Shown here one piece after another: positions 36,965-58,400 of a DNA stretch of 64,000 bases. Position numbers and translations under genes: made by a program. The number at the start of each line of letters is the position of its first letter. The stretch's first letter is position 1. The notes under the pieces were generated by a model that saw only the letters and a list, made by a program, of their open reading frames with translations, ran no database searches and was not told the origin of the DNA. Origin of the DNA: a phage; sequence record PZ386971.1; one strand, written 5' to 3'.

Positions 36965-37048
36965 TGGTGTGAGTGGATGGATTCGAACCACCGCGCTGTT
37001 ACGGGGAGATTTACAGTCTCCTGCATTCGACCGCTCTGCCACACTCAC
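36965..37048 (-). tRNA. tRNA-Tyr (anticodon GUA), class II
   Basis: Acceptor GTGAGTG/CACTCAC, anticodon loop CTGTAAA, T-loop GGTTCGAATCC, long variable arm, CCA encoded. Confidence 0.7.
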
Positions 37049-37305
37049 ATTTGGTCTGCCGCTGCGTGCTGGGCCACGCTCGAGGACATCGGCCATCCTT
37101 CCTCAGCTAATCCACGCAGCGGTAGATTTGTATCAGAGTGTCCGGTGTAGCAACCCGTGAGGTGCGCACTACTGTAGCCTCTACACTCTGAATTTGGTGG
37201 GCGTTACTATCGTCGTCTTCGGATTCCGTTCGGCTATTGGACAGAGGCTTGGAGCTTGTCGGTCGCGTACTTTATGCCTATTCACTTTCGTTCACACCCA
37301 TTGTC

Positions 37306-37381
37306 TGGCGACGATGGCAGGACTTGAACCTGCGACATACGGTTTAACAGACCGCCGTTCTACCGACTGAACTACATCGTC
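37306..37381 (-). tRNA. tRNA-Asn (anticodon GUU)
   Basis: 76 nt; acceptor GACGATG/CATCGTC, anticodon loop CTGTTAA, T-arm GCAGG-TTCAAGT-CCTGC, CCA encoded. Confidence 0.75.
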
Positions 37382-37552
37382 TTGCAAATCACTATACCAT
37401 ATAAAGTTTATTGAACAAACATTTATTTTACAACAAACTGTATTGGCGGGGTCTGAGGCTTTTCACCTCACCTGCTGGGTTTGGCCGCCCAGCCGTTCTC
37501 TATGAGGATTCACTGTCCGGACAGCTATCCATTAAACTATCGCCCCTCAATA

Positions 37553-37629
37553 TGGTGATCCTGATTGGGTTTGAACCAATGACCAATGAATTATGAGTTC
37601 ACTGCTCTAACCGACTGAGCTACAGGACC
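37553..37629 (-). tRNA. tRNA with CAU anticodon (elongator Met or Ile-lysidine type)
   Basis: 77 nt; acceptor GGTCCTG/CAGGATC with G1-C72 pair, anticodon loop CTCATAA, T-arm ATTGG-TTCAAAC-CCAAT, CCA encoded. Confidence 0.7.
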
Positions 37630-43209: not shown

Positions 43210-44400
43210 ATGGCCGATTTTCTGAGTCGATACACAGGTCAGCAGATTGATGCAATCCTTTCTTCTGTTGACGATAAAATAAGCAAGACTGATGTTGTCA
43301 ACGATTTCGCTGTTGATGATCCGTTGTTCCCTCCTTCAGCTCATTTGACATACGAGCTGAAGCGTTCTGTGGATAAAATCTACGACACACTGGAAAACAA
43401 AGTGATCCGCACCGACGGTGGTGAACAAACGATCAACGGGAACAAGACCTTTGCTGCGTTATTGACAGCCAACGGCGGCCTGACTGTTCCGGCTGGGAAG
43501 AAACTGTCTATCGCGGATGAGCCTATAGTAGCGACAGATGGTGTTAACCTGAGCATGTTGAGAAAGCATGGTGTCAGTGAAGACACTACCCCGCCTGGTT
43601 CTGGTTTGGCTGGGGAGTTGTTGACATCCGGATATTACAAATTCAATTTGGATTTCACCAGATTGTCTGCGTATACCGGATCAACGTTGCCGACTTCAAT
43701 TCCAGTACAAACAGATTCTGGAGCGCGTTATTGGACAATGACTGCATTTTTTGATGCGTTGTTCGCAGACAACCGATTTAATGGATATGTGACAACGACA
43801 GCGTATGACGCAGATATGCTGAGTCTAGAGTCCCAGATTAATAACATCAACACATCGTTGAACGGGAAAGTCAACACATCGACTTACAACACTAAGATGG
43901 CGTCGTTGGATTTGAGTATCTCCAATATCAATACGTCTCTGGGTAATAAAGTCGAGGTCAGCACGTACAACACGAAGATGACATCTCTGGATAACAGCAT
44001 CAGTTCTCTTTCCAGTGATAAAGTTAATGTATCAACGTATAATGCCAAGATGACCTCTGTCGACAATAGTTTAGGGAACGCCGTTTATCGTACCAAAACG
44101 AATTTGTCTTCTTACACGGTTTCGGCTTCTGGGACGACGGCTCTTCCAGATTTTGATTTGGTGAACCTTTGTCAAATACTGGTGACCGCGCAATGGGGAA
44201 CAGGTAACGTTGTTGATACATATCGAGTAACCATAACTCGCGACGGAACTATCAAATCGGAGTTGTTGGTTCAGAAAAGTACGAGCGGTACAGTGACGTT
44301 CACAGGGGCTGTGGTGGGTGGTAAATTGAGAATTTCCGTTGTTAATGCGAATACAACAACTGCTTGTTCGGTCGATTATTCTATTGTAGCTTCTTTCTAA
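43210..44400 (+). CDS. tail fiber protein with internal tandem repeats
   Basis: N-terminal fiber-like segment (VIRTDGGEQTINGNKTF); three tandem ~21-aa repeats (NINTSLxxKVxxSTYNTKMxSLD). Confidence 0.6.
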   Translation: MADFLSRYTGQQIDAILSSVDDKISKTDVVNDFAVDDPLFPPSAHLTYELKRSVDKIYDTLENKVIRTDGGEQTINGNKTFAALLTANGGLTVPAGKKLSIADEPIVATDGVNLSMLRKHGVSEDTTPPGSGLAGELLTSGYYKFNLDFTRLSAYTGSTLPTSIPVQTDSGARYWTMTAFFDALFADNRFNGYVTTTAYDADMLSLESQINNINTSLNGKVNTSTYNTKMASLDLSISNINTSLGNKVEVSTYNTKMTSLDNSISSLSSDKVNVSTYNAKMTSVDNSLGNAVYRTKTNLSSYTVSASGTTALPDFDLVNLCQILVTAQWGTGNVVDTYRVTITRDGTIKSELLVQKSTSGTVTFTGAVVGGKLRISVVNANTTTACSVDYSIVASF

Positions 44401-44408
44401 AGTGAAAA

Positions 44409-44417
44409 CTAAATACC
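44409..44417 (+). promoter_or_regulatory. candidate late promoter (CTAAATAcc) with downstream leader hairpin
   Basis: Motif followed by perfect inverted repeat tacccta...taggggta just upstream of ATG 44453. Confidence 0.4.
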
Positions 44418-44452
44418 CCTAGATGAAACGAACACATTTAGGGGTATTTGAA

Positions 44453-47400
44453 ATGGCTAATAAACCAACACAGCCTGTTTTCCCTCTCGGTCTGGTGGCT
44501 GAAGAGCAGTCTACTTTGGCTGGTGTCGTCAACAAGGGTACGATTGAGCATGGACCAGATGCTGTCCTGACTTTACCCGAGGGTAATGCCAGCGCAGGAC
44601 TCCCGTCTTCCGTTCGCTACAATGCCGACTCCGACGAATTTGAGGGCTTCTATGAAAATGGTGGATGGTTGCCGCTGGGTGGCGGTGGTATCCGCTGGGA
44701 AGTCCTTCCGCATGCCTCTACGGTAATGCTCACTGAAGGGCGAGGCTATCTCATTAATAATACCACAGGGGCATCTACAGTGGTTCTCCCTTCCCCTACG
44801 CGTATTGGGGATTCCGTTACTATTTGTGATGCTTATGGGAAATTTGCCACTTACCCATTGACCGTGTCTCCTTCTGGAAATAATTTGTATGGCTCCACTG
44901 AAGACATGGCTATAACAACTGATAACGTATCAGCAACGTTCACTTGGTCTGGGCCTGAACAAGGTTGGATTATTACATCCGGCGTCGGTCTTGGCCAAGG
45001 CCGTGTCTACAGTCGTGAAATCTTTACAAAAATTTTGGCGTCTGAAACAAGTACTGTCACTCTCAATACTCCACCAACAATCGTGGACGTGTATGCTGAC
45101 GGAAAACGCCTTGCGGAATCCAAATATTCACTAGATGGGAATGTAATCACTTTCAGTCCTTCTTTGCCAGCCAGCACAGAACTTCAGGTGATTGAATATA
45201 CTCCTATTCAATTGGGTAATGGCGGTGGTTCTAGTTCTTCTACGATTACTTGGGTCTATAATGGGGGTTCAGCGATTGGCGGTGAAACCGAAATCACGTT
45301 GGACGTCGTTGTTGATGATGTTCCGGCCATTGATATAAACGGAAGTCGTCAGTATAAAAATCTGGGATTCACATTCGATCCATTAACCAGTAAAATCACT
45401 CTGGCGCAAGAACTGGAACCAGAAGATGAAGTTGTTGTAATTATCAATGGAACACCAAACATCTATAATCAAATTGATCATACTTTGCGGGAAGTGGCTC
45501 GTGTAACCAATGTTAAAGATACAGAGGTCGTTTATTTTAGTGTTGGTGCTGTGCTAAGCGGGTATAAAGTTATCTATGATAAAGTAACACAGAGATCATA
45601 TTTTATTCCAGAGCTACCGACTGGAACCACGGCAGTCAGCCTTAGTTCTTCGGCTGTACTTGTGCATTCTGCTGGTAGTGTTGATCTGGGCGCATTAGCC
45701 GTATCTCGTGAGGAGTATGTGACCTTACCTGGTTCATTCGATACAGGTGTAACTGTTAATACCAAGAATGAGTTGGTTGTGAGTAACGATATTAAATATC
45801 GTTGGGATGGTTCTGTACCCAAAGTAGTCCCTCCAGAATCTACCCCATTGGGTACAGGAGGTGTTGGTCCAGGGGCATGGCTTGTAGTTGGTGTTGTTGG
45901 ATTAGAGCAACGTTTAGCCTCCTGGAAAGGTTCTTCTCTTATTGATTCCGGTAGTCTGTCTCTTTACAAAAAGAGCGGTGTATTCGGTGATGGTGGGAAT
46001 GTATCCGATAAATATCAGGTTGTTCTACATTCAGATGGGTTCTGGTACAAGTACAATGGGACACTACCTGTTAGTTATGGTGCTGCCCCAGACTCTTCTT
46101 GGACTAACGTTGGTAAGCTAACAGGGTTTAATGAACACTCACCTGAGAATTTTGGTGCAATCCCCAATGACCCTAGTTTTGACTGTTTACCTGCTATAAA
46201 ACTAGCTATAGCCACAGGTACATTAAATCTGAATGGGAATTCTACCTACCACGTAACGGATGAGGTTGTTATACCTTCTTACTTACGTGGGAATCTAAAC
46301 GGGGCAACAATTAAAGCAATTGGCTCCGTATGGCCTACGTTAAAAGCTGTTGTACGCGTTAGTAAATTTCCTGTCGGTACAGCAACAGTGGATGTGGCTA
46401 ATACAGAGAATCAAGTGCGAGGATTACGCTTAATCGGTAGCTTAAACGTAGACTGTGCAGATATTGCATCATATGGTTTTTATGCACGTCTTCTGTGTGC
46501 AGAATCTGAGATGGGTAGCATCTATGCATATAATGCTAATAGATATGGCATTGTAATGTTTGCTTGCTGGTATTTTCAAATGGGCACTCTCCATGCAAAC
46601 AACTGTGCAAGGGGTATGGCATTAGGTTATTCAACAGAAGGTGAGCAAGGGGATACCTATGTGAATGCTACACACTTCCCTCACATTAGTGCATGGGGTA
46701 CTGATAAGTCTACGGGACTAGGTTATGACCCAATCACGGATGATGCGAGTAAATATACAATAGGTGCTGGTATTATCTTAGGTCGTGGTTTGTCTACCAG
46801 TGTTGGTGTGATTTGCTCTGAGAATACGGCAGGTGCTGGGGTAGTAACAATGGACCCTGCTGCGTGGGACATTGGGGTCATGTACTGTGAGGGTAATAGT
46901 AAAGACTTTACTCAAGAGGGTGAACCCAAGGTGTCATTGCTGTCATCCAAGGCCAACAGTGAAAGTCATACGCTTACCATCTCCACACTCCACCTTTCCG
47001 CAGGTTGTGGCATTTTAACCAGAAGCAATCAAGAGCGTGTGCTAATCAGAAGTCTATATCGCTTTGATAACGCAAAAACCTTCCACTCTTACTGCACAGC
47101 AGACACAGTAGAGGTTGGTAGCAGCAACTACTATGTACTTAACGGGCATAATTACAATGCACCTGCTGCACTTATTAAGGAACCGCTCAATGTAGACTTT
47201 GTGCGTTCAGGGTTGACTTTAAGTGAGTGGACATCTACAGTTATCGGTCATTTTGCTGGTAGTACAGCAGAACAACAGCTTTATGTTAAGCTCCCAGCAA
47301 GTCCCAGCGGCCTAGATTTACAGATAGATAGTGAGGATGGGACGGAATATATCACTGTAACTGGTACAGATTTTAAAGTCTCTCTAACTAAGAAAAGATT

Positions 47401-47506
47401 GCCTAGTAAACTGTATGAGATAAGGATTGGTGGGGTGTCTACAGTAGCTGTTACCGATTGTTCTATTCTAGTCAGAAGTAAAAAAGGTGATTGGTATTAC
47501 TGGTAG
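44453..47506 (+). CDS. tailspike protein A (N-terminal anchor region, shared ~130-aa module, beta-helix-like C-terminal part)
   Basis: Start set at MANKPTQ downstream of promoter and leader hairpin; shared module at about aa 375-510. Confidence 0.65.
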   Translation: MANKPTQPVFPLGLVAEEQSTLAGVVNKGTIEHGPDAVLTLPEGNASAGLPSSVRYNADSDEFEGFYENGGWLPLGGGGIRWEVLPHASTVMLTEGRGYLINNTTGASTVVLPSPTRIGDSVTICDAYGKFATYPLTVSPSGNNLYGSTEDMAITTDNVSATFTWSGPEQGWIITSGVGLGQGRVYSREIFTKILASETSTVTLNTPPTIVDVYADGKRLAESKYSLDGNVITFSPSLPASTELQVIEYTPIQLGNGGGSSSSTITWVYNGGSAIGGETEITLDVVVDDVPAIDINGSRQYKNLGFTFDPLTSKITLAQELEPEDEVVVIINGTPNIYNQIDHTLREVARVTNVKDTEVVYFSVGAVLSGYKVIYDKVTQRSYFIPELPTGTTAVSLSSSAVLVHSAGSVDLGALAVSREEYVTLPGSFDTGVTVNTKNELVVSNDIKYRWDGSVPKVVPPESTPLGTGGVGPGAWLVVGVVGLEQRLASWKGSSLIDSGSLSLYKKSGVFGDGGNVSDKYQVVLHSDGFWYKYNGTLPVSYGAAPDSSWTNVGKLTGFNEHSPENFGAIPNDPSFDCLPAIKLAIATGTLNLNGNSTYHVTDEVVIPSYLRGNLNGATIKAIGSVWPTLKAVVRVSKFPVGTATVDVANTENQVRGLRLIGSLNVDCADIASYGFYARLLCAESEMGSIYAYNANRYGIVMFACWYFQMGTLHANNCARGMALGYSTEGEQGDTYVNATHFPHISAWGTDKSTGLGYDPITDDASKYTIGAGIILGRGLSTSVGVICSENTAGAGVVTMDPAAWDIGVMYCEGNSKDFTQEGEPKVSLLSSKANSESHTLTISTLHLSAGCGILTRSNQERVLIRSLYRFDNAKTFHSYCTADTVEVGSSNYYVLNGHNYNAPAALIKEPLNVDFVRSGLTLSEWTSTVIGHFAGSTAEQQLYVKLPASPSGLDLQIDSEDGTEYITVTGTDFKVSLTKKRLPSKLYEIRIGGVSTVAVTDCSILVRSKKGDWYYW

Positions 47507-47513
47507 TATAATA

Positions 47514-47542
47514 AAAAGCCCCCAATTTTGGGGGCTTTTATT
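47514..47542 (+). terminator. intrinsic terminator after tailspike A
   Basis: gccccc-aatttt-gggggc hairpin then TTTTATT. Confidence 0.6.
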
Positions 47543-47570
47543 ATATAGAGTTTACTGTTTTCATTACCCT
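47536..47570. repeat. conserved ~35-bp element downstream of tailspike terminators (copy 1)
   Basis: ttttatatagagtttactgttttcattaccct; near-identical copy at 55206-55240. Confidence 0.5.
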
Positions 47571-47762
47571 GATTGATAATGCTGTTGGCTCTCTCGGGTT
47601 GTCATCAAACGGGTATAAGAACTTTATAGGTGATATCAATGATGGGTCAGCGTATTTTTATTTCGCCAACATAGATGGATCAAGAATATCGGGGTCGTCT
47701 GTTTATGATGGGTGGGGTGATGTTGGTATACATTTTGAAATGTGTCTGGAATAGGAGTGTCA

Positions 47763-47857
47763 AACCCCGCTTTGGCGGGGTTCTTATTATACCTTTGTTC
47801 ATAAATTTGATTAGTTCAGACTAAATACTCCATATTGGTCATCCTTTATGGGGTATT
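47763..47857. repeat. repeated cassette-boundary module (hairpin + late promoter + leader hairpin), copy 1
   Basis: About 95 bp, roughly 85% identical by eye to 50741-50832, immediately upstream of tailspike B. Confidence 0.6.
47821..47829 (+). promoter_or_regulatory. candidate late promoter (CTAAATAct)
   Basis: Within repeated module, 32 nt upstream of ATG 47861. Confidence 0.4.
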
Positions 47858-47860
47858 ATC

Positions 47861-50290
47861 ATGATTTCTCAATTCAATCAACCACGCGGCTCCACTTCCA
47901 TAGAAGTTAACAAACAATCTATCGCTCGAAATTTCGGTGTCAAAGAAGACGAAGTCGTTTATTTCACTGCTGGTATTGATCTCAGTGGATTTAAAGTAAT
48001 TTATAATGAGTCTACCCAACGGGCTTATTCTCTTCCTTCAGGTATTGTTTCAGGAACGACTGCGATAAGTCTGGATAAAAGAGCTATCCTCACTCATTCA
48101 GCGGGTTCTGTTGATCTTGGGGAATTAGCAGTAAGCCGCGAAGAATACGTAACCTTACCTGGTTCATTTGATACTGGTGTAACTGTTAATACTAAGAATG
48201 AATTAGTTGTCTTTACCGATGGTAAGTATCGCTGGGATGGGGCACTGCCTAAAGAAGTGCCTGCTGGTTCAACCCCTACATCAACCGGTGGTGTTGGAAC
48301 AGGTGCATGGGTTAGTGTTGGTGATGCGAGTTTGAGGTCAATAGCTCAATACAGAGCCAATACCATTGAAGATTTAAAATCATTGCCATTTGCGGTTGGA
48401 GATATTGTTAATGTCGCTGGGTATTATGATGTTTTTGATGGGGCACAGCATTACCGAGTGATTAGTGGTACAGATGATGGAACAGGGGTTCAGCTCAATA
48501 ATGGTTTGTGGGCAAATATTATCATTAATGGCGATGCTTGTGTAGATTGGTTTGGCGCTAAAGGTGATGGTGTTGCAGATGACTGGTGGGCAATCAATAA
48601 AGCTATTAACGCCTCGCTCTCTACCGATTATCAGGGTGGTTGGTGGGAGACGTCAAGTAGAAACCCTAAATTTAAAGTTAGACTTAGTAGACGCTCTTAC
48701 AGAATCACTAAACAGATTTTACTACCCCCTTACATAGAGTTTTATGGTATGGGTTCGCGCTGGTATTTTTCGGGTGATAATAATTCTCGCTTAATCCCTG
48801 ATTTTGATAATCCGTTGCAATTCGCTGTGAAATCTGCTAGCTATATTGTTGAAACCGGTGAACTAGCACCTGAGGGGTGGTATTCTGGGGTGGTTTGGGT
48901 TGACCCAAAAAAACTAACGACTTGTCATGGTATTAAAACTTATGGATATAGCATCGAACCAACAAAACAAATTTTAGGCGGTATAAGACTGATAGCGAGT
49001 CCAATTTCTCATGTATACGATATATTCATAACAAATGTTGATTTTGGAGTTTTACTGAATTGTTCATGGGTGAGTAAGGTTGACGTTAAAACTCATCATA
49101 ATAAATGCGGGGTTATGTCTAGTCATGATGGTAATAACACTCACGTGGATGGTTATTTTACAGGGACAGAAATCAAACCGCTTGATGGTAATCCTTACCT
49201 CAACCCAATAGAGTCTTTAGACTCTACAACAGGGCTCCAAGACCAATCTATATCTGACCCAGACAGTAAAATAGGTGTGATTTTTTATTGGTCACAGGGG
49301 TCAACAAGTACGAATATGACGTGTGAGGGTAACACTATTTCGTTGGCTGTGGCTAAGGGTGGTGCTGATGTAAGGTGTTTATACTCAGAACGTAATTCAG
49401 ATTGTACATTTACTGGGTACAGTTCACTAGTTACAATTGGTGAAATAACTGGCATTGGTGACGGTGGAACTTTTGAGCTTGGTGTAAATAATACTATTTC
49501 GTTAGACAAAGACACTCAGTATGGTGTCGCTAAACGATTTAAGTACGTGAGCGAGTGGGGTAATAAGCTGTTTATGCCCTCTAGCTGGAAAGAATACACC
49601 AAAGGTTGTTTAGTTGAAGGGTTTGATTATAGCGAAATTTTTGTAGATGCGATAAATGGAGATGACACCAATGTTGGCTCCAGTCTTCACCCTGTGAAAA
49701 CTTTGGAGAGAGCTCTAACGCTTGTGAATTCAGTGTATACTACATCTGACTTGCTAAGCTCAGTGCCGAGGGATAGAGTAATAAAGTTAGTAGGCTCAGC
49801 AACATACTACCCAGACGGACAGCATAGGTTCGTGGGCGGCTCGTTAAAAATTACAAAAGCTGATAACTCACGACCGACTGTTAATTTATCAAAACCAATC
49901 CGATTTAACGACACATCCCTAGTATTTGAGGAAGTAAATTTAGTGCGACCAACAGATGACCACGGGAATAATGAGAATGGCGCAATTTTCCTTGAGGATG
50001 GGTGTAATGAAGTCAGATTGAAAAACTGCGATCTAAGTCTACAAAAATTCAGCTTCTTATATCCTACTTGGGGCTTTGCTGGAATATGTACCTTGGTGTT
50101 AAACGGGGTTAGTGTTACTGGTGATTCAACAACAAGAATGATACAAACAGCTGATGGATATCATGATTTGCACTTGTTTAATGTAATTAGCTACGAGACA
50201 ACTTACACTGGAGGAATAGAGTCAAGACCAGATAAAGGCTATGATATACCAGCAGATAGACGTGGTCATATATTGGGTGTATCAATATAA
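47861..50290 (+). CDS. tailspike protein B (shared N-terminal module + pectate-lyase-like beta-helix)
   Basis: Shared module at aa 20-150; WFGAKGDGVADDWWAINKAI resembles the beta-helix depolymerase entry motif. Confidence 0.65.
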   Translation: MISQFNQPRGSTSIEVNKQSIARNFGVKEDEVVYFTAGIDLSGFKVIYNESTQRAYSLPSGIVSGTTAISLDKRAILTHSAGSVDLGELAVSREEYVTLPGSFDTGVTVNTKNELVVFTDGKYRWDGALPKEVPAGSTPTSTGGVGTGAWVSVGDASLRSIAQYRANTIEDLKSLPFAVGDIVNVAGYYDVFDGAQHYRVISGTDDGTGVQLNNGLWANIIINGDACVDWFGAKGDGVADDWWAINKAINASLSTDYQGGWWETSSRNPKFKVRLSRRSYRITKQILLPPYIEFYGMGSRWYFSGDNNSRLIPDFDNPLQFAVKSASYIVETGELAPEGWYSGVVWVDPKKLTTCHGIKTYGYSIEPTKQILGGIRLIASPISHVYDIFITNVDFGVLLNCSWVSKVDVKTHHNKCGVMSSHDGNNTHVDGYFTGTEIKPLDGNPYLNPIESLDSTTGLQDQSISDPDSKIGVIFYWSQGSTSTNMTCEGNTISLAVAKGGADVRCLYSERNSDCTFTGYSSLVTIGEITGIGDGGTFELGVNNTISLDKDTQYGVAKRFKYVSEWGNKLFMPSSWKEYTKGCLVEGFDYSEIFVDAINGDDTNVGSSLHPVKTLERALTLVNSVYTTSDLLSSVPRDRVIKLVGSATYYPDGQHRFVGGSLKITKADNSRPTVNLSKPIRFNDTSLVFEEVNLVRPTDDHGNNENGAIFLEDGCNEVRLKNCDLSLQKFSFLYPTWGFAGICTLVLNGVSVTGDSTTRMIQTADGYHDLHLFNVISYETTYTGGIESRPDKGYDIPADRRGHILGVSI

Positions 50291-50740
50291 ATAATTGATA
50301 TTATGCTTCATGGTGATTGTGGGTGATTCACCCACGATTACTTTTAGGTACTACAGTTGATAATTCAGATTGATACATTGGATTGGCAGGTGCGTGTAAT
50401 ACTGCACTTGAATTTTGATACATAAATCCGGCACCCTCCCTCACCCTCAACGCGCCCAATTGCCCCCATAGGAGGCTCATTACCTCCTTGTGGGCTTTGT
50501 TGTTTTTGTGGCTGCTGTTGCTGACTACATTCTATGTATGGATGTATCTCATCATACTAAGCATTATCTAAGAGCCATCCTATGATACGACCCCATTGGG
50601 ATTCCTAACTTCACAACTACGGTAATATTATGAATTAATCAGGTGAACTGCTCCTAGTCAGACTGGAGGAACGATTGAAGACTCTGTTTGATAATCAGGC
50701 AAGGGATAGATAGGATCGTGGTTTTGGAGAGTAAAATCAA

Positions 50741-50832
50741 AACCCCTCTTCGGCGGGTTCTTGTTATACCTTTGTTCATAAATTTATTAGTTCAGACTAA
50801 ATACCCCATATTGGCAAATCCTCTATGGGGTA
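50741..50832. repeat. repeated cassette-boundary module, copy 2
   Basis: Near-duplicate of 47763-47857 immediately upstream of tailspike C. Confidence 0.6.
50797..50805 (+). promoter_or_regulatory. candidate late promoter (CTAAATAcc)
   Basis: Followed by leader hairpin taccccata...tatggggta and ATG 50841. Confidence 0.4.
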
Positions 50833-50840
50833 TCTTCAAA

Positions 50841-53177
50841 ATGACCAGAAACGTCGAGAGCATCTTTGGAGCGGTCGTAACAGCTCCGCACCAGATTCCA
50901 TACACTTACACAGCAACGGGTGGAGAGAAGTTTATCTCCCTCCCTTTCTACCCTGTCACTGGTATAGTCACAATCAACGGTGGCATGCAAGTTCCGTTAG
51001 ACAACTTTGAAATCGATGGAAATACGTTGAATCTCGGACGCGCATTATCCAAAGGTGACGTTGTGTTCTGTCTGTTTGATAAGATTCTGTCTCCAGAAGA
51101 TTATAAAACCGGGGTTCGAATCTATAAGTTTCAGGCTATAGGAGGTGAAACCGAGTTCACTCCTGATTACACATATTATGGAGTCCAATCTCTTTATATC
51201 GGTGGTGAGTACAAAACACCCGAAATTGAATATTCCTATGACAGCACGACAGGGAAAGTGTCTTTACAAACTGCGCTGACTGCAGGCGTTTGGGTAGTCG
51301 CTGAAATGTCTGTTAAACAACCGAATATCAGTCCGTTGTTTGACCGAAGTATTCAAGAAATCGCCCGTTCAACTAATGTAAAAGATTCTGAAGTAATCCT
51401 TAGTACGGATACTTCTCAGGTACTTAATGGTAAGAAAATTATTTACTCTGTTAATGAGCAGAAGTCTTATGGTTTACCGGTATTACCTACTAACGTTTAT
51501 ATTCAGTCTGTTGTTAACGGGAAGCTCACATACAATCCTGGTTCTGTGGTTGTAGATTTACTCTCTGTACCAAGTGAAGCACTTGAAGCAGTTAATTTAA
51601 TTAAAACCAATTTACTTAGTGAATCGGGTGCATCTTTGGTTGGGTATACAAAACCCTATACTGGTGCAGTTAAACGTCTTGCTTCTGATTACTTTAATCA
51701 GGAGATTAACGTTGATGACTTTGGTGCATACGGTGATGCATATCTTCTTAACGGCACTGTAAACCCAAATCGCCATGATGACTCTGCTGCATTCCAGAAG
51801 GCATTGATTGCTGCTTATCGAATTGGTGGTGCTAAGGTTGTAGCTACTCCTTGGAAGAGTTATTACATTGCCAACAAGGTATATGTACTAGCTTCCGAGT
51901 CCGGTTCCGATATTGAAGCACCAGTTTTCCCTAAACGTCGTATCCAGTTAATTGATTTACAGGGTGCTACCATTGTTGGACAGGATGATACATCTAACAC
52001 CAGTAATGTGTTTATGGAGACAGGCTATATTACTAGTACTGGTTCTGTAGCTTCCGTATTTGGTAAAGGTGAGGAAGAGTATTTAACCATTGGTACATGT
52101 GTGCGAAATGCTACGCTGGTAAATTTCTACCAAGGCTTCCGTTTCCGTGACCATGTTTTTGGTTGTGAACTTACCGATATTGTAGGACAAGATGTGCAGC
52201 AGCTTCTTTATACTCGTCGCTGTTTCTACTCGCTGTACCGTAACTTACAATGCAATGGTAGTTTTACTACTGGCTTGCATCGTTATGACATTGGGGATGA
52301 AGTGAATATTCAGCCTCTGATTTCGGTCCATACTGGCGAGTGTGACGTAGGTATTAAGTTCACTGGGGCAGTTGAAGCACTGACTCTCTTTAACTGTGGT
52401 ATTGAAAGTTTCCGCACACATGGAGTATGGATTGCTGGTGCTTACAATATTAAGTTCGATTCTTGTTACTTTGAATCGAATCACCCTAATGTGTACGGTT
52501 GTATCGCTACCAGTGCTAATAACATTACATTGGATAATAACTGGATTTATGGTTCATCTTTTAAGATGTTCGGTGGGTTTGATGACAACACTAATGTCAG
52601 AATGCACCCTAATAACCGTATAGGGGGTGGAGCAGTTTGGTGGGATCTTAATGAAGGCTCCCCTTATAACTTATCTGACTTACACTTCCCTACTGACATA
52701 AAAGCTGGTGGTAATACCTTACCCGTAGTTAGTGCCAAGGAAGCTAGTACTGTAAACCAGACTATTACTTTCTATGACCCTAATTTAGGTTTGTCCTCAA
52801 TAGTTGGTAAAGCAGAGCAAACTAACCGTTTCCACCCACAACGAGTAAATGGTCAGATGAGCATCGGTAGTACTGCATCTTATACAGTTGGTGCATCTAC
52901 AACCACTGAAGTAGTTGGAAATGATACCCGAGTTAAGTGGACTACCCAAATAAGATATTCTGATACACAGTTACTGTATGTAGCACTTAAGGTAGATAAC
53001 AACTTAGGAACCTGGTTCTGGTTAGGCCATGTTGTAGGTGATACAGCTAAAGCCTTACTTACCAGTGATGAAAACAAACCCCCTGTAGTTACTAATGAAA
53101 ATGGTTATGTAACTATAACCAGTCCACTACTTGCTACCCCTATTGCAATTCATGGTGGTGAGATTCGTATACTGTAA
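50841..53177 (+). CDS. tailspike protein C (divergent copy of shared module + beta-helix-like domain)
   Basis: Start set at ATG 50841 downstream of promoter (track ORF began at 50688); DDFGAYGDAY...SAAFQKALIAA motif. Confidence 0.6.
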   Translation: MTRNVESIFGAVVTAPHQIPYTYTATGGEKFISLPFYPVTGIVTINGGMQVPLDNFEIDGNTLNLGRALSKGDVVFCLFDKILSPEDYKTGVRIYKFQAIGGETEFTPDYTYYGVQSLYIGGEYKTPEIEYSYDSTTGKVSLQTALTAGVWVVAEMSVKQPNISPLFDRSIQEIARSTNVKDSEVILSTDTSQVLNGKKIIYSVNEQKSYGLPVLPTNVYIQSVVNGKLTYNPGSVVVDLLSVPSEALEAVNLIKTNLLSESGASLVGYTKPYTGAVKRLASDYFNQEINVDDFGAYGDAYLLNGTVNPNRHDDSAAFQKALIAAYRIGGAKVVATPWKSYYIANKVYVLASESGSDIEAPVFPKRRIQLIDLQGATIVGQDDTSNTSNVFMETGYITSTGSVASVFGKGEEEYLTIGTCVRNATLVNFYQGFRFRDHVFGCELTDIVGQDVQQLLYTRRCFYSLYRNLQCNGSFTTGLHRYDIGDEVNIQPLISVHTGECDVGIKFTGAVEALTLFNCGIESFRTHGVWIAGAYNIKFDSCYFESNHPNVYGCIATSANNITLDNNWIYGSSFKMFGGFDDNTNVRMHPNNRIGGGAVWWDLNEGSPYNLSDLHFPTDIKAGGNTLPVVSAKEASTVNQTITFYDPNLGLSSIVGKAEQTNRFHPQRVNGQMSIGSTASYTVGASTTTEVVGNDTRVKWTTQIRYSDTQLLYVALKVDNNLGTWFWLGHVVGDTAKALLTSDENKPPVVTNENGYVTITSPLLATPIAIHGGEIRIL

Positions 53178-53228
53178 TTACACAGCCCCCTTAACTGGGG
53201 GCTACCATAGAAAAACAATGAGGTTTAT

Positions 53229-55145
53229 ATGAACGAAATGTTCTCACAAGGTGGTAAAGGCTCCACTGGTATTCTTACCAATAAACAAGCCATTGCTCGT
53301 AAGTTTGGTGTTAAGCAGAACGAAGTAGTTTACTTTTCTGTAGGAGTAGACTTGGGTGGATACAAAGTCATTTATGATAAGGCTACTCAACGTGCTTACT
53401 CACTACCTGCAAATATTGCCCCAGGTACTATTGCTACTAGTCTTAGTGCTAATGCTGTACTTGTTCATTCAGCTGGTTCTGTAGATCTTGGGGAATTAGC
53501 CGTATCTCGTGAAGAATACGTTACATTGTCTAGGTCGTTTGACACTGGTGCTACACTTAATGTTAAAAATGAATTGCTTACCCATACAACAGGTAAGTAT
53601 CGCTGGGATGGCGAGTTACCTAAAACCGTTTCTTCTGGCTCAACTCCTGAAAGTGCTGGTGGTACTGGGTTAGGCAAATGGGTTAGTGTTGGTGATGCAG
53701 CCTTGAGAATCAATCTTGCATCTGATGATGGCGCTGGTCTGGTCGGATTTAAGTCACCTCTGGCCAACTCCATTAAGCGAACACTACATGATAAAAATAA
53801 AGACCTGGTGTCAGTCAAGGACTTCGGGGCTGTTGGCGACGGTGTGACCGATGATACCGCCGCGTTTCAGGCAGCAATAGATTCGAAAAAGAGTTTATAC
53901 ATACCGGATGGTATTTATCTTATAAGCTCTACTTTAATCATAACTGCCACTGATAGTCTATGTATTGTTGGTAATAGTTTTGGACATGTTAATGACCAAA
54001 CAACAGGTTCAGTAATTAAGTTTACCGGGTTAGCGTCACCCGCCATTCGGGTTCAAGGTGGTGCGATAGGAGCTAAGATTTCTGGACTTTTTCTGGATAT
54101 CCAGGATTCATCATCTGATGGCTTTGATTTCGGTGGGGCTTGGTATTTAAAACTTCAAGATTGCGTTGTCAGAAACGCTCGATATGGGGTCTATTTACAT
54201 TACGATAGCCCAGACTATTTTTCCGGAGTAGCTGAACTAACTTCATGCTATTTCGCTAAATGTGCAAATGGTGTAAAAACGTCAAAGGTAGATATCAACG
54301 TAGTTAAAGTTGATAATTGTACTTTCTTTGATGGTGTTAACGGTGTTCTTATCGGAGACTCAGGTACTGCAAGTAGTGTACGAAATTTCATAGTCAGAGA
54401 CTCTCTATTTGAAGCAAACACGGGCTATGACGTAGGTGTTGTCGCCGGGGGTGCACAGCAGTTACTGGTAGATGGTAACTACTTTGAAGAGAATACTGCT
54501 TCTTCTTTAGCCAGGGTATATGTTACAGATGATAGTCACTCACCGCGTTCTTCTTCTGTTTCAATAACCAACAACACGTTTAGCAAAGATACGACAGGCG
54601 ATCTTATTTTCCTGTCTGGTATTTCCGGTGTTCTTGTTAAACAAAACTGGTCAGCATTTGGGGGTATAGGTTTTGTAAGGGCTATTAATATCGACAATTA
54701 TGAGATAGATAGATGCTCTACCGTATCTGGAGCAACAGCCTGTAATGTTGTTATAGATAACGTCTTACAAGTACCTGACACTTCTGTTAATAAGATTTAT
54801 ATTAACAAGGCCCAAGAATACGCGTTTATCGGGACTTCCGTCGTAAAAAGGTCGAGTGCATGTACACGGGCAATGATCAATTTTAATGGAATTTCGGGGT
54901 CGTCAGTGTATGCGGATGGAGCAACTGTAACTAAAACCGGGACCGGTAAATATACCGTCAACCTATCTAATACTATGCCCTCCTCTGCTTATGCTGTTTT
55001 ATGCAGTGTTGGCAATACCACTAGCGGAGGGAAATTAGTAATTAATGTCGTAAGTACATCCCCTGACTCTTTTAACTTAGAAGTTTTTGACCTTTCTGGA
55101 TCGTATCAAGATTCAGGATACATATCTGCCGCAGTTGTTATGTAA
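53229..55145 (+). CDS. tailspike protein D (shared N-terminal module + pectate-lyase-like beta-helix)
   Basis: Shared module at aa 20-150; VKDFGAVGDGVTDDTAAFQAAIDS beta-helix entry motif. Confidence 0.65.
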   Translation: MNEMFSQGGKGSTGILTNKQAIARKFGVKQNEVVYFSVGVDLGGYKVIYDKATQRAYSLPANIAPGTIATSLSANAVLVHSAGSVDLGELAVSREEYVTLSRSFDTGATLNVKNELLTHTTGKYRWDGELPKTVSSGSTPESAGGTGLGKWVSVGDAALRINLASDDGAGLVGFKSPLANSIKRTLHDKNKDLVSVKDFGAVGDGVTDDTAAFQAAIDSKKSLYIPDGIYLISSTLIITATDSLCIVGNSFGHVNDQTTGSVIKFTGLASPAIRVQGGAIGAKISGLFLDIQDSSSDGFDFGGAWYLKLQDCVVRNARYGVYLHYDSPDYFSGVAELTSCYFAKCANGVKTSKVDINVVKVDNCTFFDGVNGVLIGDSGTASSVRNFIVRDSLFEANTGYDVGVVAGGAQQLLVDGNYFEENTASSLARVYVTDDSHSPRSSSVSITNNTFSKDTTGDLIFLSGISGVLVKQNWSAFGGIGFVRAINIDNYEIDRCSTVSGATACNVVIDNVLQVPDTSVNKIYINKAQEYAFIGTSVVKRSSACTRAMINFNGISGSSVYADGATVTKTGTGKYTVNLSNTMPSSAYAVLCSVGNTTSGGKLVINVVSTSPDSFNLEVFDLSGSYQDSGYISAAVVM

Positions 55146-55160
55146 GTAATAATCACTTAA

Positions 55161-55195
55161 AAACAACCCCACTTCTATGGGGTTGTTTTTACTTA
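55161..55195 (+). terminator. intrinsic terminator after tailspike D
   Basis: aaacaacccc...ggggttgttt 10-bp stem then TTTTTAC. Confidence 0.6.
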
Positions 55196-55205: not shown

Positions 55206-55240
55206 TTTTTATATAGAGTTTACTGTTTGCATTACCCTAA
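55206..55240. repeat. conserved ~35-bp element downstream of tailspike terminators (copy 2)
   Basis: tttatatagagtttactgtttgcattaccct, matching 47536-47570. Confidence 0.5.
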
Positions 55241-55404
55241 TCGATACAGCAGTTAAGGTAATAGTCTGACCTGATATATTAAACATACCTAATTGAATAC
55301 CATCTACCATGAATGGCAGAGGTCTCGAATCCATGACCATAACCACAGAAAGATAATCAAAGCCCCTTCGGGCTTATTTCTTTCTATTCCTCGGTTGGTT
55401 GTAT

Positions 55405-55446: not shown

Positions 55447-58400
55447 ATGCAAGAAATGAACCTCAACCGCCGCCCATATTGGGATGACTGGAATCCAGAG
55501 AAGCGTTTTTCGCGCATCCTATTCCGTCCGGCACCTATCAAAGTTCAGACGCGTGAACTGAACCAGATGCAGACCATCTTCCAGGATCAACTGGAGAAAC
55601 TTGGCAACCATCTGTTCAAAGACGGTTCAATGGTTATCCCCGGCGGCCTAACGATCACCAACACTGCTGTGTCCATGAAGTTCACTCTGGCTGGTGGTAG
55701 TGAGTTCACTGATCTGGAAGGTATCTCCGAACTCTATGTTCTGGGCAAGGACAACAATGCGAAAGCACGCGTCCTGTCCTTGGAACGTTATCCAGCTGAG
55801 CCGGATACAATGTATGCCATCTTAGAGATGACTGAGAGTGGTAGTTCAGACGGTTTCGAAGCTGGCGACAATCTATATTTCAACACCTATGACGTGAACG
55901 ATAACTTCATCCGTGTCGGCTATGGTGTGGCCGATACTGTTGGTGGTTCGATTGTCGCTCGCATGACAAAGGGTGTTTATTTCGTTCGTGGTATGTTCCT
56001 GGATGTTGAACCAACCACTTTGATCGTAGACAACGCATCGAACTCTACATCTCACCGCATTGGATTCAAAGTTACAGAAACAATCGTGACCGAAGCAGAA
56101 GATGAAAGTCTGTTCTCCAATGCTCAGGGTACTCCGAACTCTAAAGCCCCTGGTGCGCATCGCCTGCGCGTCGACCTCGTGTTGTCTCGCTACGGTTATG
56201 ATGAAGAAGTGGCCGACTTCGTCGAACTAGCGAAGGTGAAAGACGGTCGCATTCAGTCCATGGTCACCCAGTCAACGTACAACATCCTCGAAGACGCCAT
56301 GGCTCAGCGTACCTATGAGACCAACGGGGATTACAACGTCTCTACTCACCAGATCGACCTGCGCGAACATCTGAAAGAGAACAACAACGGCGGCGTTTAC
56401 ACTCCGGCTGAAGGTGGAGATGAAAGCAAATTCGTGGCGGTTATGAAGCCAGGCATTTCCTACGTTCGTGGTCGTCGTATCGAAAACCTCGGCGAAGAGC
56501 TGGTCACAATTGACAAAGCCCGTGACACTGATACCCTGAACAACAACCCTGTGGCTGTTTCGACTGGTAACTATCTGGTGTCCAAGAACTCCAAAGGGGT
56601 TCCGGTTGTCTCCCGCACAATCCGCTACAAGTTCCTGAACGCATCCAGCGATGTACAGGCCACTGCCCTGCTGATTTCGGCAGAGCGCTCCGGTACTGAA
56701 TTCCGTCTGTATATGCGTGACCTGGTTGTGACTGGGGACATGGGCACGGTGACCAAAGTCGCTTATGAAGAAAGTGGTACAACGATGTTCTCTTGCGAAC
56801 TGGAGTCCAATCAGTTCAGCCAGAGTTCAGCAATTGACCTGATCTTCCCTCTGCCTGTATTTGGTGTGAAGACTCTAGCACCTACAGGCACCATCGACAT
56901 CAACTACACTGTCCTACGGTCAAACAAGATCACGTTGAACGCCGCTGGTGCAGGCTCAATCTCCGCTCCTCTGGGTTACAGCTTCAGCCCTGAGTTTTCA
57001 CTGTACTCCGCAGCGAAGGCAGATGGCACTGCAGCTCAGTTTGATATCTCTTCGGGACTGTCCCTGGCTGGTACTCCGGTTGGTTCAGCACTGCAGATTT
57101 CCCTGGGCGCGGGGTACGCCAACCAGTCTATCAACCTGTTGGCATTGATGGTCCGCACCACAGCGACGATCAAGACCAAGACTGTTACCGAAGTCACCGA
57201 GACTGTGACGTTTACTACGGCAGCCAGCGTACAACTTGGGAACCACGACGGATACAAGCTGGTCAGTGTGAAGAACGCAAATGGTGCTGACGTCACCTCG
57301 AACTTCACTCTGGACGGCGGTCAACGCGATGCGGCGTACTACCGTTCTAACCTCGTATCGTCTACTGGAGCCATCTCAGGCGTGTTCACAGTGGTGTACC
57401 AGTACTTCGCTCACAGCTCTGGTGATTTCTTCACAGCGGACTCCTATTCGTCCATCAACTACCCAGACATCCCGAACTATGTTTCATCCAGTTCTGGTAC
57501 TGTGTATGGGTTGGCCGACAGCCTGGACTTCCGTCCCAAGATAACCAACGGAGCGTCTGACACGGACATGGTTCGCCCGAACACCGCGATCATCCTAGAT
57601 GCAGAGTACTATCTGCCTCGTATTGATGCCGTGTATCTGGCAGACAACGGCGTGTTCAACGTTGCTCGCGGTGTGAGTTCCAACAACCTGGCTTCCCCTG
57701 CGATCCCAGACAACGGCATGCGCCTGTATGAATTGATGATCCCACCATACACGGCCAACATCGACGACATCCAGATTCGTACTATCGACAACCGCCGCTA
57801 CACGATGCGCGATATCGGTAAACTGGAGACCCGTATCTCCAATGTCGAATATTACACCTCACTGTCTCAGCTGGAATCCTCGGCGATGTCACAACAGGTG
57901 TTCGATCCAATTACTGGTAACCCGCGCTTCAAGAACGGTATCGCAGCAGACCCGTTCAAAGACTTCCGTCTGATCGACGATTTGTCTGCAGACTGGGTGG
58001 GTTCAATCGACACTGACAATGGTCGCCTACGCCCGTTTGTTCAGCAGAACGCGATTGACCTGACGCCAGTCGGTTGGAACAACGTTCAGGATGGCATGGT
58101 TGTATGCAACTACACCCGTGAGATCTCTGTCCGCCAGGACTATGCAACCACGACCATCAACGTGAACCCGTATGCGGTGTTCAACTGGGAAGGCTTCTTG
58201 AAGCTGAACCCGACTACTGATTACTGGTTTGAGAACTACTATGTCACCCCACGTGTGATCAACGAAACGATCAACACCCGTGGTGCGATCAAAGAAGGTT
58301 CTGTGTATGGCACATGGCGTACTGTGTCTGTGTCTGAGCGTGTGTGGGAACCGCATGGTGCAGGTGGTGTATGGTGGGGCTATCGCTACCGCACGACTGT

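What the first reader, a model, noticed from the sequence alone, without database searches (positions are those of the whole stretch)
44453..55145. Four consecutive tailspike genes sharing a ~130-aa module, each with a different beta-helix domain
All four large ORFs contain a recognisably related segment (for example SAGSVDLGELAVSREEYVTLPGSFDTGVTVNTKNELV), conserved even at nucleotide level between genes A, B and D. Each is followed by a different beta-helix-like region with pectate-lyase-type entry motifs. This is the architecture of a branched multi-tailspike receptor-binding complex, implying up to four glycan specificities. The nucleotide-level repeats are obvious substrates for module swapping.
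Basis: partly seen in the sequence, partly recalled or inferred. Interest (0 to 1): 0.6.

Follow-up and report, generated by a model that had tools for sequence, protein, structure and literature searches.

The report
Agtrevirus four-tailspike gene cluster (TSP4-3-2-1)
This is the well-known four-tailspike host-recognition gene cluster of an Ackermannviridae (Agtrevirus) phage of E. coli; the architecture is ordinary for the family, and only this mix of four borrowed sugar-binding domains is new.

Summary
The four ORFs are real. They are orthologues of the CBA120 tailspikes, in the order TSP4 (44453-47506), TSP3 (47861-50290), TSP2 (50841-53177) and TSP1 (53229-55145). They sit between the baseplate-wedge genes and vriC of an Agtrevirus, whose backbone is about 97% identical to phages A221 and fGh-Ecl02.

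The shared module is the published D1-D2 (TD1/TD2) "head". TSP4, TSP3 and TSP1 share about 140-165 aa at 56-67% aa identity, with 71-75% nt identity in the best local stretches. TSP2 has only D1 (about 35% aa, no detectable nt similarity) and lacks the quoted SAGSVDLG… segment. This is what the literature reports for TSP2.

The four C-terminal domains are unrelated to each other. The right-handed beta-helix fold is supported for TSP4 (AlphaFold pLDDT 88), TSP2 and TSP1 (profile evidence), and only weakly for TSP3.

Each receptor-binding domain has its closest relative in a different phage lineage: Kuttervirus/Kayfunavirus, Phapecoctavirus, N4-like/P22-like, and Agtrevirus/Phapecoctavirus. Local nt identity reaches 97-100%, and the breakpoints fall inside or at the end of the head module.

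The branched-complex and module-swap interpretation is therefore supported, but it is already published (Plattner 2019; Sørensen 2021, 2023, 2024). The glycan specificities remain unknown.

Side observation: each tsp4/3/2 promoter motif CTAAATAcCcc forms a hairpin with the ribosome-binding region.

The parts
44409..44419 (+). CTAAATACCCC motif upstream of tsp4. It forms the 5' arm of a 16-bp hairpin (about 44410-44450) whose 3' arm covers the SD-like GGGG before the ATG.
   Evidence: Exact motif found. RNA fold -21 kcal/mol, z -8.6. The motif is described for this phage group in PMC7283392.
44453..47506 (+). tsp4 (1017 aa). Domains: baseplate anchor AD 44453-44677, XD1 44690-44986, XD2 45017-45199, XD3 45245-45457, head D1-D2 about 45470-45922, receptor-binding domain 45950-47503.
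   Evidence: PDB 7REJ/7RFO match residues 1-338 (E 1e-196) and 5W6H matches residues 343-514. Pfam PF18668 hit. Linker positions located. AlphaFold model of residues 500-1017 has pLDDT 88, and its best Foldseek hits are all beta-helix tailspikes.
45482..45898 (+). Shared head module (D1-D2) copy in tsp4.
   Evidence: Alignments. nt similarity to the B and D copies.
47514..47539 (+). Terminator-type hairpin after tsp4 (AAAAGCCCCC-AATTTT-GGGGGCTTTT). It is followed by a 49-nt element (47538-47586) that is repeated after tsp1.
   Evidence: Read from the sequence. Repeat family D3.
47762..47856 (+). Upstream control cassette of tsp3, copy 1 of a ~95-nt direct repeat. It holds a hairpin plus T-run (47763-47782), the CTAAATACTCC motif (47821-47831) and a 5'-UTR hairpin.
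   Evidence: Repeat families D4/D5. Alignment with relatives. Terminator scan. Fold.
47861..50290 (+). tsp3 (809 aa). Head D1-D2 47861-48330; receptor-binding region 48353-50287.
   Evidence: PDB 6NW9/5W6F match residues 1-166 (E 1e-84). Pfam PF18668 at 92 bits and PF12708 at 31 bits. The receptor-binding domain is 96% aa identical to Phapecoctavirus ukendt.
50733..50833 (+). Upstream control cassette of tsp2, copy 2 of the ~95-nt repeat. Motif at 50797-50807.
50841..53177 (+). tsp2 (778 aa). XD2-XD3 about 50841-51317, a single head domain D1 about 51318-51590, receptor-binding domain 51624-53174.
   Evidence: PDB 6W4Q matches residues 1-257 (E 3e-127). No PF18668 hit. A profile of the receptor-binding-domain family hits beta-helix glycosidases and tailspikes in PDB (3EQN at 7e-19, 7CHU, Sf6 tailspike). 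Of 40 family members, 19 hit PF12708 and 9 hit PF13229.
53229..55145 (+). tsp1 (638 aa). Head D1-D2 53229-53700; receptor-binding domain 53736-55142. There are only 51 nt after tsp2 and no CTAAATAcCcc motif, so it is probably co-transcribed with tsp2.
   Evidence: PDB 4OJ5 matches residues 1-217 (E 6.5e-86), and residues 167-282 match beta-helix proteins. PF12708 at 52-54 bits. 98.5% aa identical to phage YX22. Upstream sequence read.
55158..55191 (.). Bidirectional terminator-like hairpin after tsp1. It is followed by the second copy of the 49-nt element (55206-55254).
55447..60285 (+). vriC-like gene (1612 aa), the conserved right-hand boundary of the tsp cluster. This is context, not part of the complex.
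   Evidence: 98% nt identical to vriC of LHE287, YX22 and A221. The same 1612-aa product follows the tsp genes in the Kuttervirus contig L009.

Best explanation
The region is the tail-spike (tsp) cluster of an Agtrevirus (Ackermannviridae) phage of E. coli. It encodes TSP4, TSP3, TSP2 and TSP1 in that order.

Inferred by homology to CBA120:
- TSP4 trimers anchor to the baseplate through the N-terminal AD domain.
- TSP2 docks on TSP4 through the XD2 domains.
- TSP1 docks through its D1-D2 head on XD3 of TSP4.
- TSP3 joins the TSP4:TSP2 complex.
- The result is a branched spike bundle carrying four different C-terminal receptor-binding domains. Each is presumably a right-handed beta-helix that binds and cleaves a different surface polysaccharide (O-antigen or capsule).

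The ~150-aa shared module is the D1-D2 head. It is an old paralogous docking module kept by protein-level selection.

Shown by comparison: because this module, the XD domains and the conserved intergenic promoter and terminator cassettes are shared between phages, they act as homology arms. Receptor-binding domains, or whole tsp genes, are exchanged through them. In this genome all four receptor-binding domains are low-GC imports with nearest relatives in different phage lineages.
For: Shown:
- Orthology of all N-terminal assembly domains to solved CBA120 structures.
- Synteny between baseplate wedge genes (PF23786, gp6-like) and vriC.
- Backbone 96-97% nt identical over 93% of 24 kb to the Agtrevirus phages A221 and fGh-Ecl02.
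- Head module shared by TSP4, TSP3 and TSP1, with D1 only in TSP2. This is as published (PMC8432352; PMC8825819).
- Beta-helix fold: TSP4, TSP2, TSP1.
- GC content of 0.40-0.43 in the receptor-binding domains against 0.49-0.52 in the backbone.

Breakpoints and relatives:
- tsp4 is 96-99% identical to Agtrevirus relatives up to about 45550 (inside D1). From there it resembles only a Kuttervirus contig, at 95-100% from 44800 to about 48100, although the baseplate genes of that contig are only about 70-75% identical.
- The tsp3 receptor-binding domain is 95% nt identical to Phapecoctavirus ukendt from 48233 (inside D2) to 213 nt past the stop codon, and 98-100% locally.
- tsp2 from D1 through its receptor-binding domain and into the start of tsp1 is 86% identical to an N4-like 71-kb contig, and 97-99% locally.
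- The tsp1 receptor-binding domain is 98.5% aa identical to YX22 and 94% to Phapecoctavirus dw-ec.

Literature:
- Complex topology from AUC and crystal structures (PMC8825819).
- Four O-antigens recognised by the four TSPs of Agtrevirus AV101 (PMC10791037).
- Experimental swap of receptor-binding domains by recombination between tsp genes (PMC11414711).
Against: - No experiment or structure exists for this phage, so complex assembly and enzymatic activity are inferred.
- The TSP3 receptor-binding domain could not be modelled (pLDDT 50). Its last ~250 aa have no family match.
- None of the four receptor-binding domains matches a tailspike of known specificity, so the number of distinct glycans (and whether they are O-antigen or capsule) is unknown.
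- Close relatives LHE287 and A221 have only three tsp genes, so tsp3 is dispensable for the complex.
- Within this genome the paralogous heads are too diverged (exact runs of 21 nt or less) to be efficient recombination substrates for each other.
Confidence: 0.9

Rival explanations
1. The shared module reflects recent duplication or gene conversion inside this genome. In that case the four genes would be a young tandem family rather than four old, functionally distinct docking partners.
For: Nucleotide-level similarity is detectable between A, B and D.
Against: - Codon-aligned nt identity is only 61-71%.
- 45-52 of about 90 identical-aa codons differ synonymously, and the longest exact run is 17-21 nt.
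- Each gene is much closer to its own orthologue in CBA120, other Agtrevirus phages and Kuttervirus than to its paralogues.
- The N-terminal architectures differ: AD-XD1-3 in TSP4, XD2-3 in TSP2, none in TSP1 and TSP3.
Confidence: 0.03
2. Only some of the four proteins are functional spikes on the virion. For example, tsp3 could be a recently acquired passenger cassette that is not assembled, or one receptor-binding domain could bind without being enzymatic.
For: - tsp3 is absent from the close relatives LHE287 and A221. It is bracketed by ~95-nt direct repeats that are single-copy in those phages.
- In CBA120, TSP3 binds only a pre-formed TSP4:TSP2 complex.
- The TSP3 receptor-binding domain has few homologues and gave a poor model.
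Against: - tsp3 is a full-length ORF with an intact D1-D2 head (PF18668 at 92 bits; 6NW9 E 1e-84) and its own promoter motif and UTR.
- YX22 and Kuttervirus phages carry tsp3 at the same position.
- AV101 uses all four TSPs.
Confidence: 0.1
3. The spikes target capsular (K) polysaccharides rather than O-antigens. They would then be capsule depolymerases.
For: - The closest structural neighbours of the TSP4 receptor-binding-domain model include Klebsiella and Acinetobacter capsule depolymerases.
- Remote homologues of the TSP3 receptor-binding domain are Acinetobacter capsule-specific tailspikes.
- YX22, which shares the TSP1 receptor-binding domain, was isolated on an O2:K1 strain.
Against: - Characterised E. 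coli and Salmonella Ackermannviridae TSPs (CBA120, AV101, S117) mostly recognise O-antigens.
- The TSP2 receptor-binding domain is 76% identical to P22-like prophage tailspikes of E. coli and Salmonella, which are classically O-antigen specific (general knowledge).
Confidence: 0.2

Closest known systems
Kuttervirus CBA120 TSP1-4 branched receptor-binding complex (ORF210-213; PDB 4OJ5, 6W4Q, 6NW9/5W6F, 5W6H, 7REJ)
   Same: - Same four-gene cluster next to the baseplate genes and vriC.
- Same N-terminal domain sets: TSP4 has AD-XD1-XD2-XD3-D1-D2, TSP2 has XD2-XD3-D1, and TSP1 and TSP3 have D1-D2. E-values are 1e-84 to 1e-196, and even the linker positions are identical.
   Different: All four C-terminal receptor-binding domains are unrelated in sequence to those of CBA120; PDB matches stop at the neck. 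The genome backbone belongs to a different genus (Agtrevirus, about 49% GC).
Agtrevirus AV101 tsp cluster (OQ973471; TSP1-4 recognise O8, O82, O153, O159)
   Same: Same genus-level backbone and cluster organisation. That paper describes the same small region of nt identity upstream of the beta-helix in tsp1/3/4, and receptor-binding domains shared with prophages and distant virulent phages.
   Different: The receptor-binding domains differ. AV101 TSP4 resembles LPST94, ST31 and Ro121c4YLVW. The window's TSP4 receptor-binding domain resembles Kayfunavirus TM1/EFA-1 and a Kuttervirus contig. No record in the phage collection covers 80% or more of this cluster.
Escherichia phages YX22, A221, LHE287, PC3/PH4 and Enterobacter phage fGh-Ecl02 (closest sequenced genomes)
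   Same: The backbone is 95-98% identical. The N-terminal parts of tsp4 and tsp2 are 92-99% identical. tsp1 as a whole is 98% identical to YX22.
   Different: The tsp4, tsp3 and tsp2 receptor-binding domains differ from all of them. LHE287 and A221 lack tsp3.
N4-like podophage G7C gp66/gp63.1 two-branched tailspike complex (PDB 4QNL)
   Same: - gp63.1 shares the D1-D2 head (E 1e-47 to 1e-63).
- An N4-like 71-kb contig carries a gp66-like protein whose D1 and receptor-binding domain are 77% aa identical to the window's TSP2 overall, and about 99% identical over the last 236 aa. It is followed by a spike that starts with the TSP1 D1 sequence.
   Different: It is a podovirus with two spikes and a different tail-attachment domain.
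Phage T4 gp10 (XD1-XD3) baseplate adaptor
   Same: The XD domains of TSP4 and TSP2 have the gp10 fold and the same role as docking platforms for trimeric partners (PMC8825819).
   Different: T4 gp10 binds gp11 and gp12 and carries no beta-helix depolymerase. This comparison was not tested here beyond the literature.

Membership tests
Ackermannviridae (CBA120-type) branched TSP complex | Cluster of two to four consecutive tsp genes between the baseplate wedge genes and vriC | tested here: met
   The ORF map shows gp6-like and PF23786 wedge genes upstream and a 1612-aa vriC homologue downstream. The arrangement is the same in LHE287, YX22, A221 and the Kuttervirus contig L009.
Ackermannviridae (CBA120-type) branched TSP complex | TSP4 with the N-terminal baseplate anchor AD followed by XD1, XD2 and XD3 | tested here: met
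   Residues 1-338 match 7REJ/7RFO at E 1e-196. The linkers GGGG76, GLGQGRVYSR179 and TPIQLGNGGG250 are conserved.
Ackermannviridae (CBA120-type) branched TSP complex | TSP2 with XD2-XD3 and a single head domain (D1/TD1 only) | tested here: met
   Residues 1-257 match 6W4Q at E 3e-127. Only the D1 half of the module aligns, and there is no PF18668 hit.
Ackermannviridae (CBA120-type) branched TSP complex | TSP1 and TSP3 start directly with the tandem head D1-D2 | tested here: met
   4OJ5 matches residues 1-217 (E 6.5e-86) and 6NW9 matches residues 1-166 (E 1e-84). PF18668 scores 75-92 bits.
Ackermannviridae (CBA120-type) branched TSP complex | C-terminal right-handed parallel beta-helix receptor-binding/depolymerase domain in each TSP | tested here: inconclusive
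   - TSP4: met. AlphaFold pLDDT 88, and the top 40 Foldseek hits are beta-helix spikes or enzymes.
- TSP2: met by family profile against PDB and Pfam.
- TSP1: PF12708 at 54 bits, plus PDB beta-helix hits for the first ~100 aa.
- TSP3: only PF12708 at 31.7 bits, and the model failed.
Ackermannviridae (CBA120-type) branched TSP complex | Physical assembly: TSP4-TSP2 via XD2, TSP1 on TSP4 XD3, TSP3 on the TSP4:TSP2 complex | not testable with these tools
   Known for CBA120 from AUC (PMC8825819). Here it is inferred from domain conservation only.
Ackermannviridae (CBA120-type) branched TSP complex | Each TSP recognises or cleaves a distinct host polysaccharide | not testable with these tools
   No receptor-binding domain here matches a spike of known specificity. 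The four domains are mutually unrelated, which is consistent with distinct ligands.
Genus Agtrevirus (Aglimvirinae) | High genome-wide nucleotide identity to recognised Agtrevirus genomes | tested here: met
   96-97% identity over 91-93% of a 24-kb flank to A221, fGh-Ecl02 and PC3, and about 91% to Ag3 and SKML-39. Only the window, not a whole genome, could be compared.

The most novel reading that the evidence does not exclude
Each tsp gene may be a self-contained cassette bounded by conserved non-coding arms as well as by the head module. The 5' arm would be a ~95-nt terminator/promoter/UTR unit, and the 3' arm a terminator plus a 49-150-nt element. The 5' arm may also carry a T4-lysozyme-like translational gate. 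The group-specific motif CTAAATAcCcc is the 5' half of a hairpin that sequesters the ribosome-binding site of tsp4, tsp3 and tsp2. Read-through transcripts would then be silent, and only transcripts started at that motif would be translated. Gain or loss of tsp3 would happen by recombination between the duplicated 5' arms.
Probability: 0.3. Interest if true: 0.4.

Novelty: new member of a known kind. Interest (0 to 1): 0.2.

Why it matters
The architecture itself teaches nothing new. It is the textbook Ackermannviridae four-spike complex, and the shared head module and its role in swapping receptor-binding domains are published.

The window does add a previously unrecorded combination of four receptor-binding domains on an Agtrevirus backbone. 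It also gives unusually clear evidence of very recent exchange (97-100% nt locally) with Kuttervirus, Phapecoctavirus and N4-like phages, with junctions inside the D1/D2 head. That is useful for host-range prediction and for engineering chimeric spikes, but it is incremental.

Tried and rejected
- **TSP3 structure.** AlphaFold on the TSP3 C-terminal 645 aa, with the 19 homologues available, gave pLDDT 50. Its Foldseek hits (CBA120 TSP1, GH28) are therefore only suggestive.
- **TSP2 profile built from close homologues (A3).** Searched against PDB, it matched only the P22-type head-binding columns brought in by prophage homologues, so it said nothing about the beta-helix. I replaced it with a profile from diverse representatives (A5), which worked.
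- **hhalign between receptor-binding-domain family profiles.** A3 vs A1 and A3 vs A2 matched only the neck and entry region. This confirms that the bodies are unrelated.
- **Exact look-up of the TSP2 protein in public assemblies.** It is not on record, so the source phage could not be named.
- **Is the window phage AV101?** Its TSP4 relatives differ.
- **Is the window phage ND-4 (PQ374922)?** It shares a 2430-nt tail gene length, but its first tail gene is 3027 nt and YX22-like. This is unresolved but unlikely.
- **T4 late-promoter consensus TATAAATA.** It is not enriched: 2 hits against 1 expected. The sigma-70 and terminator scan of the region found no more sites than in shuffled sequence.
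- **Rfam.** Only four tRNAs elsewhere in the window.
- **Literature search for the hairpin around CTAAATAcCcc.** Only the motif itself was found.

Full report
**1. What is there**

The interval holds four large + strand ORFs. The most likely gene coordinates are:
- A: 44453-47506 (1017 aa)
- B: 47861-50290 (809 aa)
- C: 50841-53177 (778 aa). The mechanical ORF begins at a TTG at 50688, but the conserved protein start MTRNVE… is the ATG at 50841.
- D: 53229-55145 (638 aa)

Upstream lie a gp6-like wedge gene, a PF23786 baseplate-wedge gene and a conserved 396-aa gene. Downstream lies a 1612-aa vriC homologue.

The 24 kb to the left is 96-97% identical over 91-93% of its length to Escherichia phages A221 and PC3 and Enterobacter phage fGh-Ecl02. 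It is about 91% identical to Shigella phage Ag3. The window therefore comes from an Agtrevirus (Ackermannviridae, Aglimvirinae). No record in the phage collection covers 80% or more of the 12-kb tailspike region.

**2. Identity of the four genes**

Sequence searches against solved structures give one-to-one orthology with the CBA120 tailspikes:
- A residues 1-338 match the TSP4 anchor/XD1-XD3 fragment (7REJ/7RFO, E 1e-196). A residues 343-514 match TSP4 5W6H.
- B residues 1-166 match TSP3 (6NW9/5W6F, E 1e-84).
- C residues 1-257 match TSP2 (6W4Q, E 3e-127).
- D residues 1-217 match TSP1 (4OJ5, E 6.5e-86).

The gene order is therefore TSP4-TSP3-TSP2-TSP1. The inter-domain linkers described for CBA120 TSP4 (Gly76-79, GLGQGRVYSR179-188, TPIQLGNGGG from residue 250) sit at the same residue numbers here. 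In all four proteins the PDB matches end at the neck, so the C-terminal domains are not those of CBA120.

**3. The shared module**

- A, B and D share it over about 156-165 aligned residues, at 56-67% identity.
- Pfam Tail_spike_N (PF18668), which corresponds to D2, hits A, B and D but not C.
- C aligns only over D1 (about 96 aa, about 35% identity). It then goes straight to the neck and the beta-helix entry motif. The quoted peptide SAGSVDLGELAVSREEYVT… is absent from C.
- This is what the literature states: all four TSPs have the tandem domains, except TSP2, which has only TD1.

Nucleotide similarity between A, B and D is real: 71-75% in the best local stretches, with E 1e-22 to 1e-57. Codon-aligned over the whole head, however, it is only 61-71%. 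About half of the identical-aa codons differ synonymously, and the longest perfect runs are 17-21 nt. These are therefore ancient paralogues held by protein-level selection, not recently converted repeats.

**4. The C-terminal domains**

The four C-terminal regions show no significant mutual similarity apart from the short FGAxGDG-type entry motif. The evidence for a beta-helix fold differs by gene:
- **TSP4:** An AlphaFold model built on 25 diverse homologues has pLDDT 88. All its significant PDB neighbours are right-handed beta-helix tailspikes or depolymerases, including K2-2 TSP, Kp7 gp52, CBA120 TSP2/3/4, Depo32 and the HK620 tailspike.
- **TSP2:** A profile of 40 diverse family members hits beta-helix enzymes and spikes in PDB (Lam55A at 7e-19, 7CHU, the Sf6 tailspike, mannuronan epimerases, polygalacturonases). 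19 of the 40 members hit PF12708 and 9 of the 40 hit PF13229.
- **TSP1:** PF12708 scores 54 bits, and there are direct PDB hits to beta-helix proteins.
- **TSP3:** Only PF12708 at 31.7 bits. Few homologues exist and the model failed (pLDDT 50). Its last ~250 aa have no family assignment.

**5. Mosaic origin**

GC content falls from 0.49-0.52 in the backbone to 0.40-0.43 in the receptor-binding domains.

*tsp4*
- It is 96-99% identical to Agtrevirus relatives up to about 45550, which is inside D1. Similarity then collapses.
- From 44800 to about 48100 it is 95-100% identical to a 157.6-kb Kuttervirus contig (GCA_026553415.1). That contig's baseplate genes are 99% identical to phages SJ3 and LPST94 but only about 70-75% identical to the window.
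- The AD anchor region (44500-44800) stays lineage-specific at 61-77%.
- The same receptor-binding domain occurs at 87-89% aa identity in Kayfunavirus tail fibres (TM1, EFA-1), fused to a T7-type N-terminus plus PF18668.

*tsp3*
- D1 resembles the Kuttervirus contig.
- From 48233 (inside D2) to 50503 (213 nt beyond the stop codon) it is 95% identical to Phapecoctavirus ukendt, and 98-100% locally.

*tsp2*
- Similarity to Agtrevirus relatives ends at 51511-51545, the end of D1.
- From 51342 (D1) through the stop codon and into the first 220 nt of tsp1 it is 86% identical to an N4-like 71-kb contig, and 97-99% locally. The last 236 aa are about 99% identical.
- About 76% identical receptor-binding domains sit on P22-type head-binding domains in many E. 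coli and Salmonella prophages.

*tsp1*
- It is 98% identical throughout to YX22.
- Its receptor-binding domain is 94% aa identical to Phapecoctavirus dw-ec, with the junction again inside D2 at 53604.

The junctions thus fall in D1 or D2 or at the neck. This supports the idea that the head is the recombination joint. The same was proposed for Kuttervirus, noted for Agtrevirus and reproduced experimentally.

**6. Mechanism**

Shown here: domain content, synteny, fold (three of four genes) and mosaicism.

Inferred from CBA120 biochemistry:
- TSP4 anchors to the baseplate by AD.
- TSP2 binds TSP4 through XD2.
- The TSP1 head binds TSP4 XD3.
- TSP3 joins the TSP4:TSP2 complex.

Inferred from CBA120 and AV101: each spike recognises and cleaves a different polysaccharide. 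Which polysaccharides is unknown. No receptor-binding domain here matches a spike of known specificity.

**7. Regulatory and cassette features noticed**

- The group-specific motif CTAAATAcCcc lies 33-44 nt upstream of the ATG of tsp4, tsp3 and tsp2, but not of tsp1. tsp1 follows tsp2 after 51 nt.
- In each case the motif is the 5' arm of a stable hairpin. The 3' arm (…GGGGTAT) covers the only SD-like sequence. Free energies are -21, -16.6 and -16.3 kcal/mol, with z -8.6, -3.5 and -3.5.
- A fourth instance at 34371 on the minus strand does the same. The stem extensions differ between sites and compensate.
- The arrangement is conserved in Agtrevirus relatives and in the Kuttervirus contig.
- From my own knowledge of T4 (gene e, soc, I-TevI), this resembles gating in which only transcripts started at the late promoter expose the ribosome-binding site. 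This is a hypothesis only.
- tsp3 is bracketed by ~95-nt direct repeats of this control region (47762-47856 and 50733-50833). The three-spike relatives LHE287 and A221 have one copy. This is consistent with cassette gain or loss by recombination between the repeats.

**8. Verdict**

The system is already well described. The novelty is limited to a new combination of receptor-binding domains and to some clean examples of recent cross-lineage exchange.

Noticed in passing
window 44405-44452, 47817-47860, 50793-50840; also 34371-34337 (minus strand): The Ackermannviridae motif CTAAATAcCcc upstream of tsp4, tsp3 and tsp2 (and of one other gene) is the 5' arm of a stable hairpin. The 3' arm (GGGGTAT) covers the SD-like sequence 5-9 nt before the ATG. 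Stem extensions differ between sites but stay complementary. This could be a T4-lysozyme-like gate that allows translation only from transcripts started at the motif.
   Followed up: partly
window 47762-47856 and 50733-50833; L001 6004-6096; L003 3654-3756: About 95-nt direct repeats (terminator-like hairpin, promoter motif and UTR) bracket the tsp3 gene. The three-spike relatives LHE287 and A221 carry a single copy. This is the footprint expected for gain or loss of tsp3 by recombination between the repeats.
   Followed up: partly
window 47538-47586 and 55206-55254; L009 10557-10605; L002 8729-8888: A conserved 49-nt (up to ~150-nt) element follows the terminators of tsp4 and tsp1, and follows other tsp genes in relatives. 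Short minus-strand ORFs over it (47541-47639, 55209-55346) share the C-terminus …SIRVM(K/Q)TVNSI. Its function is unknown; it may be a 3' cassette boundary.
   Followed up: no
L004 (Phapecoctavirus ukendt) 6473-6827; L007 (Phapecoctavirus dw-ec) 5458-5768: Both phapecoctaviruses carry a ~100-aa ORF homologous (79-83% nt) to the 5' end (D1) of Ackermannviridae tsp1, including ~45 nt of its upstream region. It lies directly downstream of their gene that carries the receptor-binding domain. It could be a remnant of transfer from an Ackermannviridae phage or a retained downstream homology arm.
   Followed up: partly
window 43600-44500 versus L009: The 3' two-thirds of the conserved 396-aa gene upstream of tsp4 is 93-98% identical to the Kuttervirus contig. 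Its 5' part and the wedge genes are only 70-85% identical, and the TSP4 anchor domain (44500-44800) is 61-77%. The mosaicism therefore extends beyond the tsp genes, and the anchor stays lineage-specific.
   Followed up: partly
window 50291-50730: There is a 440-nt non-coding gap after tsp3. Its first 213 nt came in together with the ukendt-like receptor-binding domain, including a 10-bp hairpin at about 50316-50338. The rest (50504-50730) has no match in the loci examined and no convincing ORF.
   Followed up: partly
window 49541-50287 (TSP3 residues ~561-809): The last ~250 aa of TSP3 have no Pfam match. The only confidently modelled part of the TSP3 prediction (pLDDT about 80) lies here. It begins with a motif (DAINGDDTNVGSSLHPVKTLERAL) that resembles the N-cap of another beta-helix-type domain, so TSP3 may have a second C-terminal module.
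   Followed up: partly
window 36659-37629 (minus strand): Four tRNA genes lie in a cluster.
   Followed up: no
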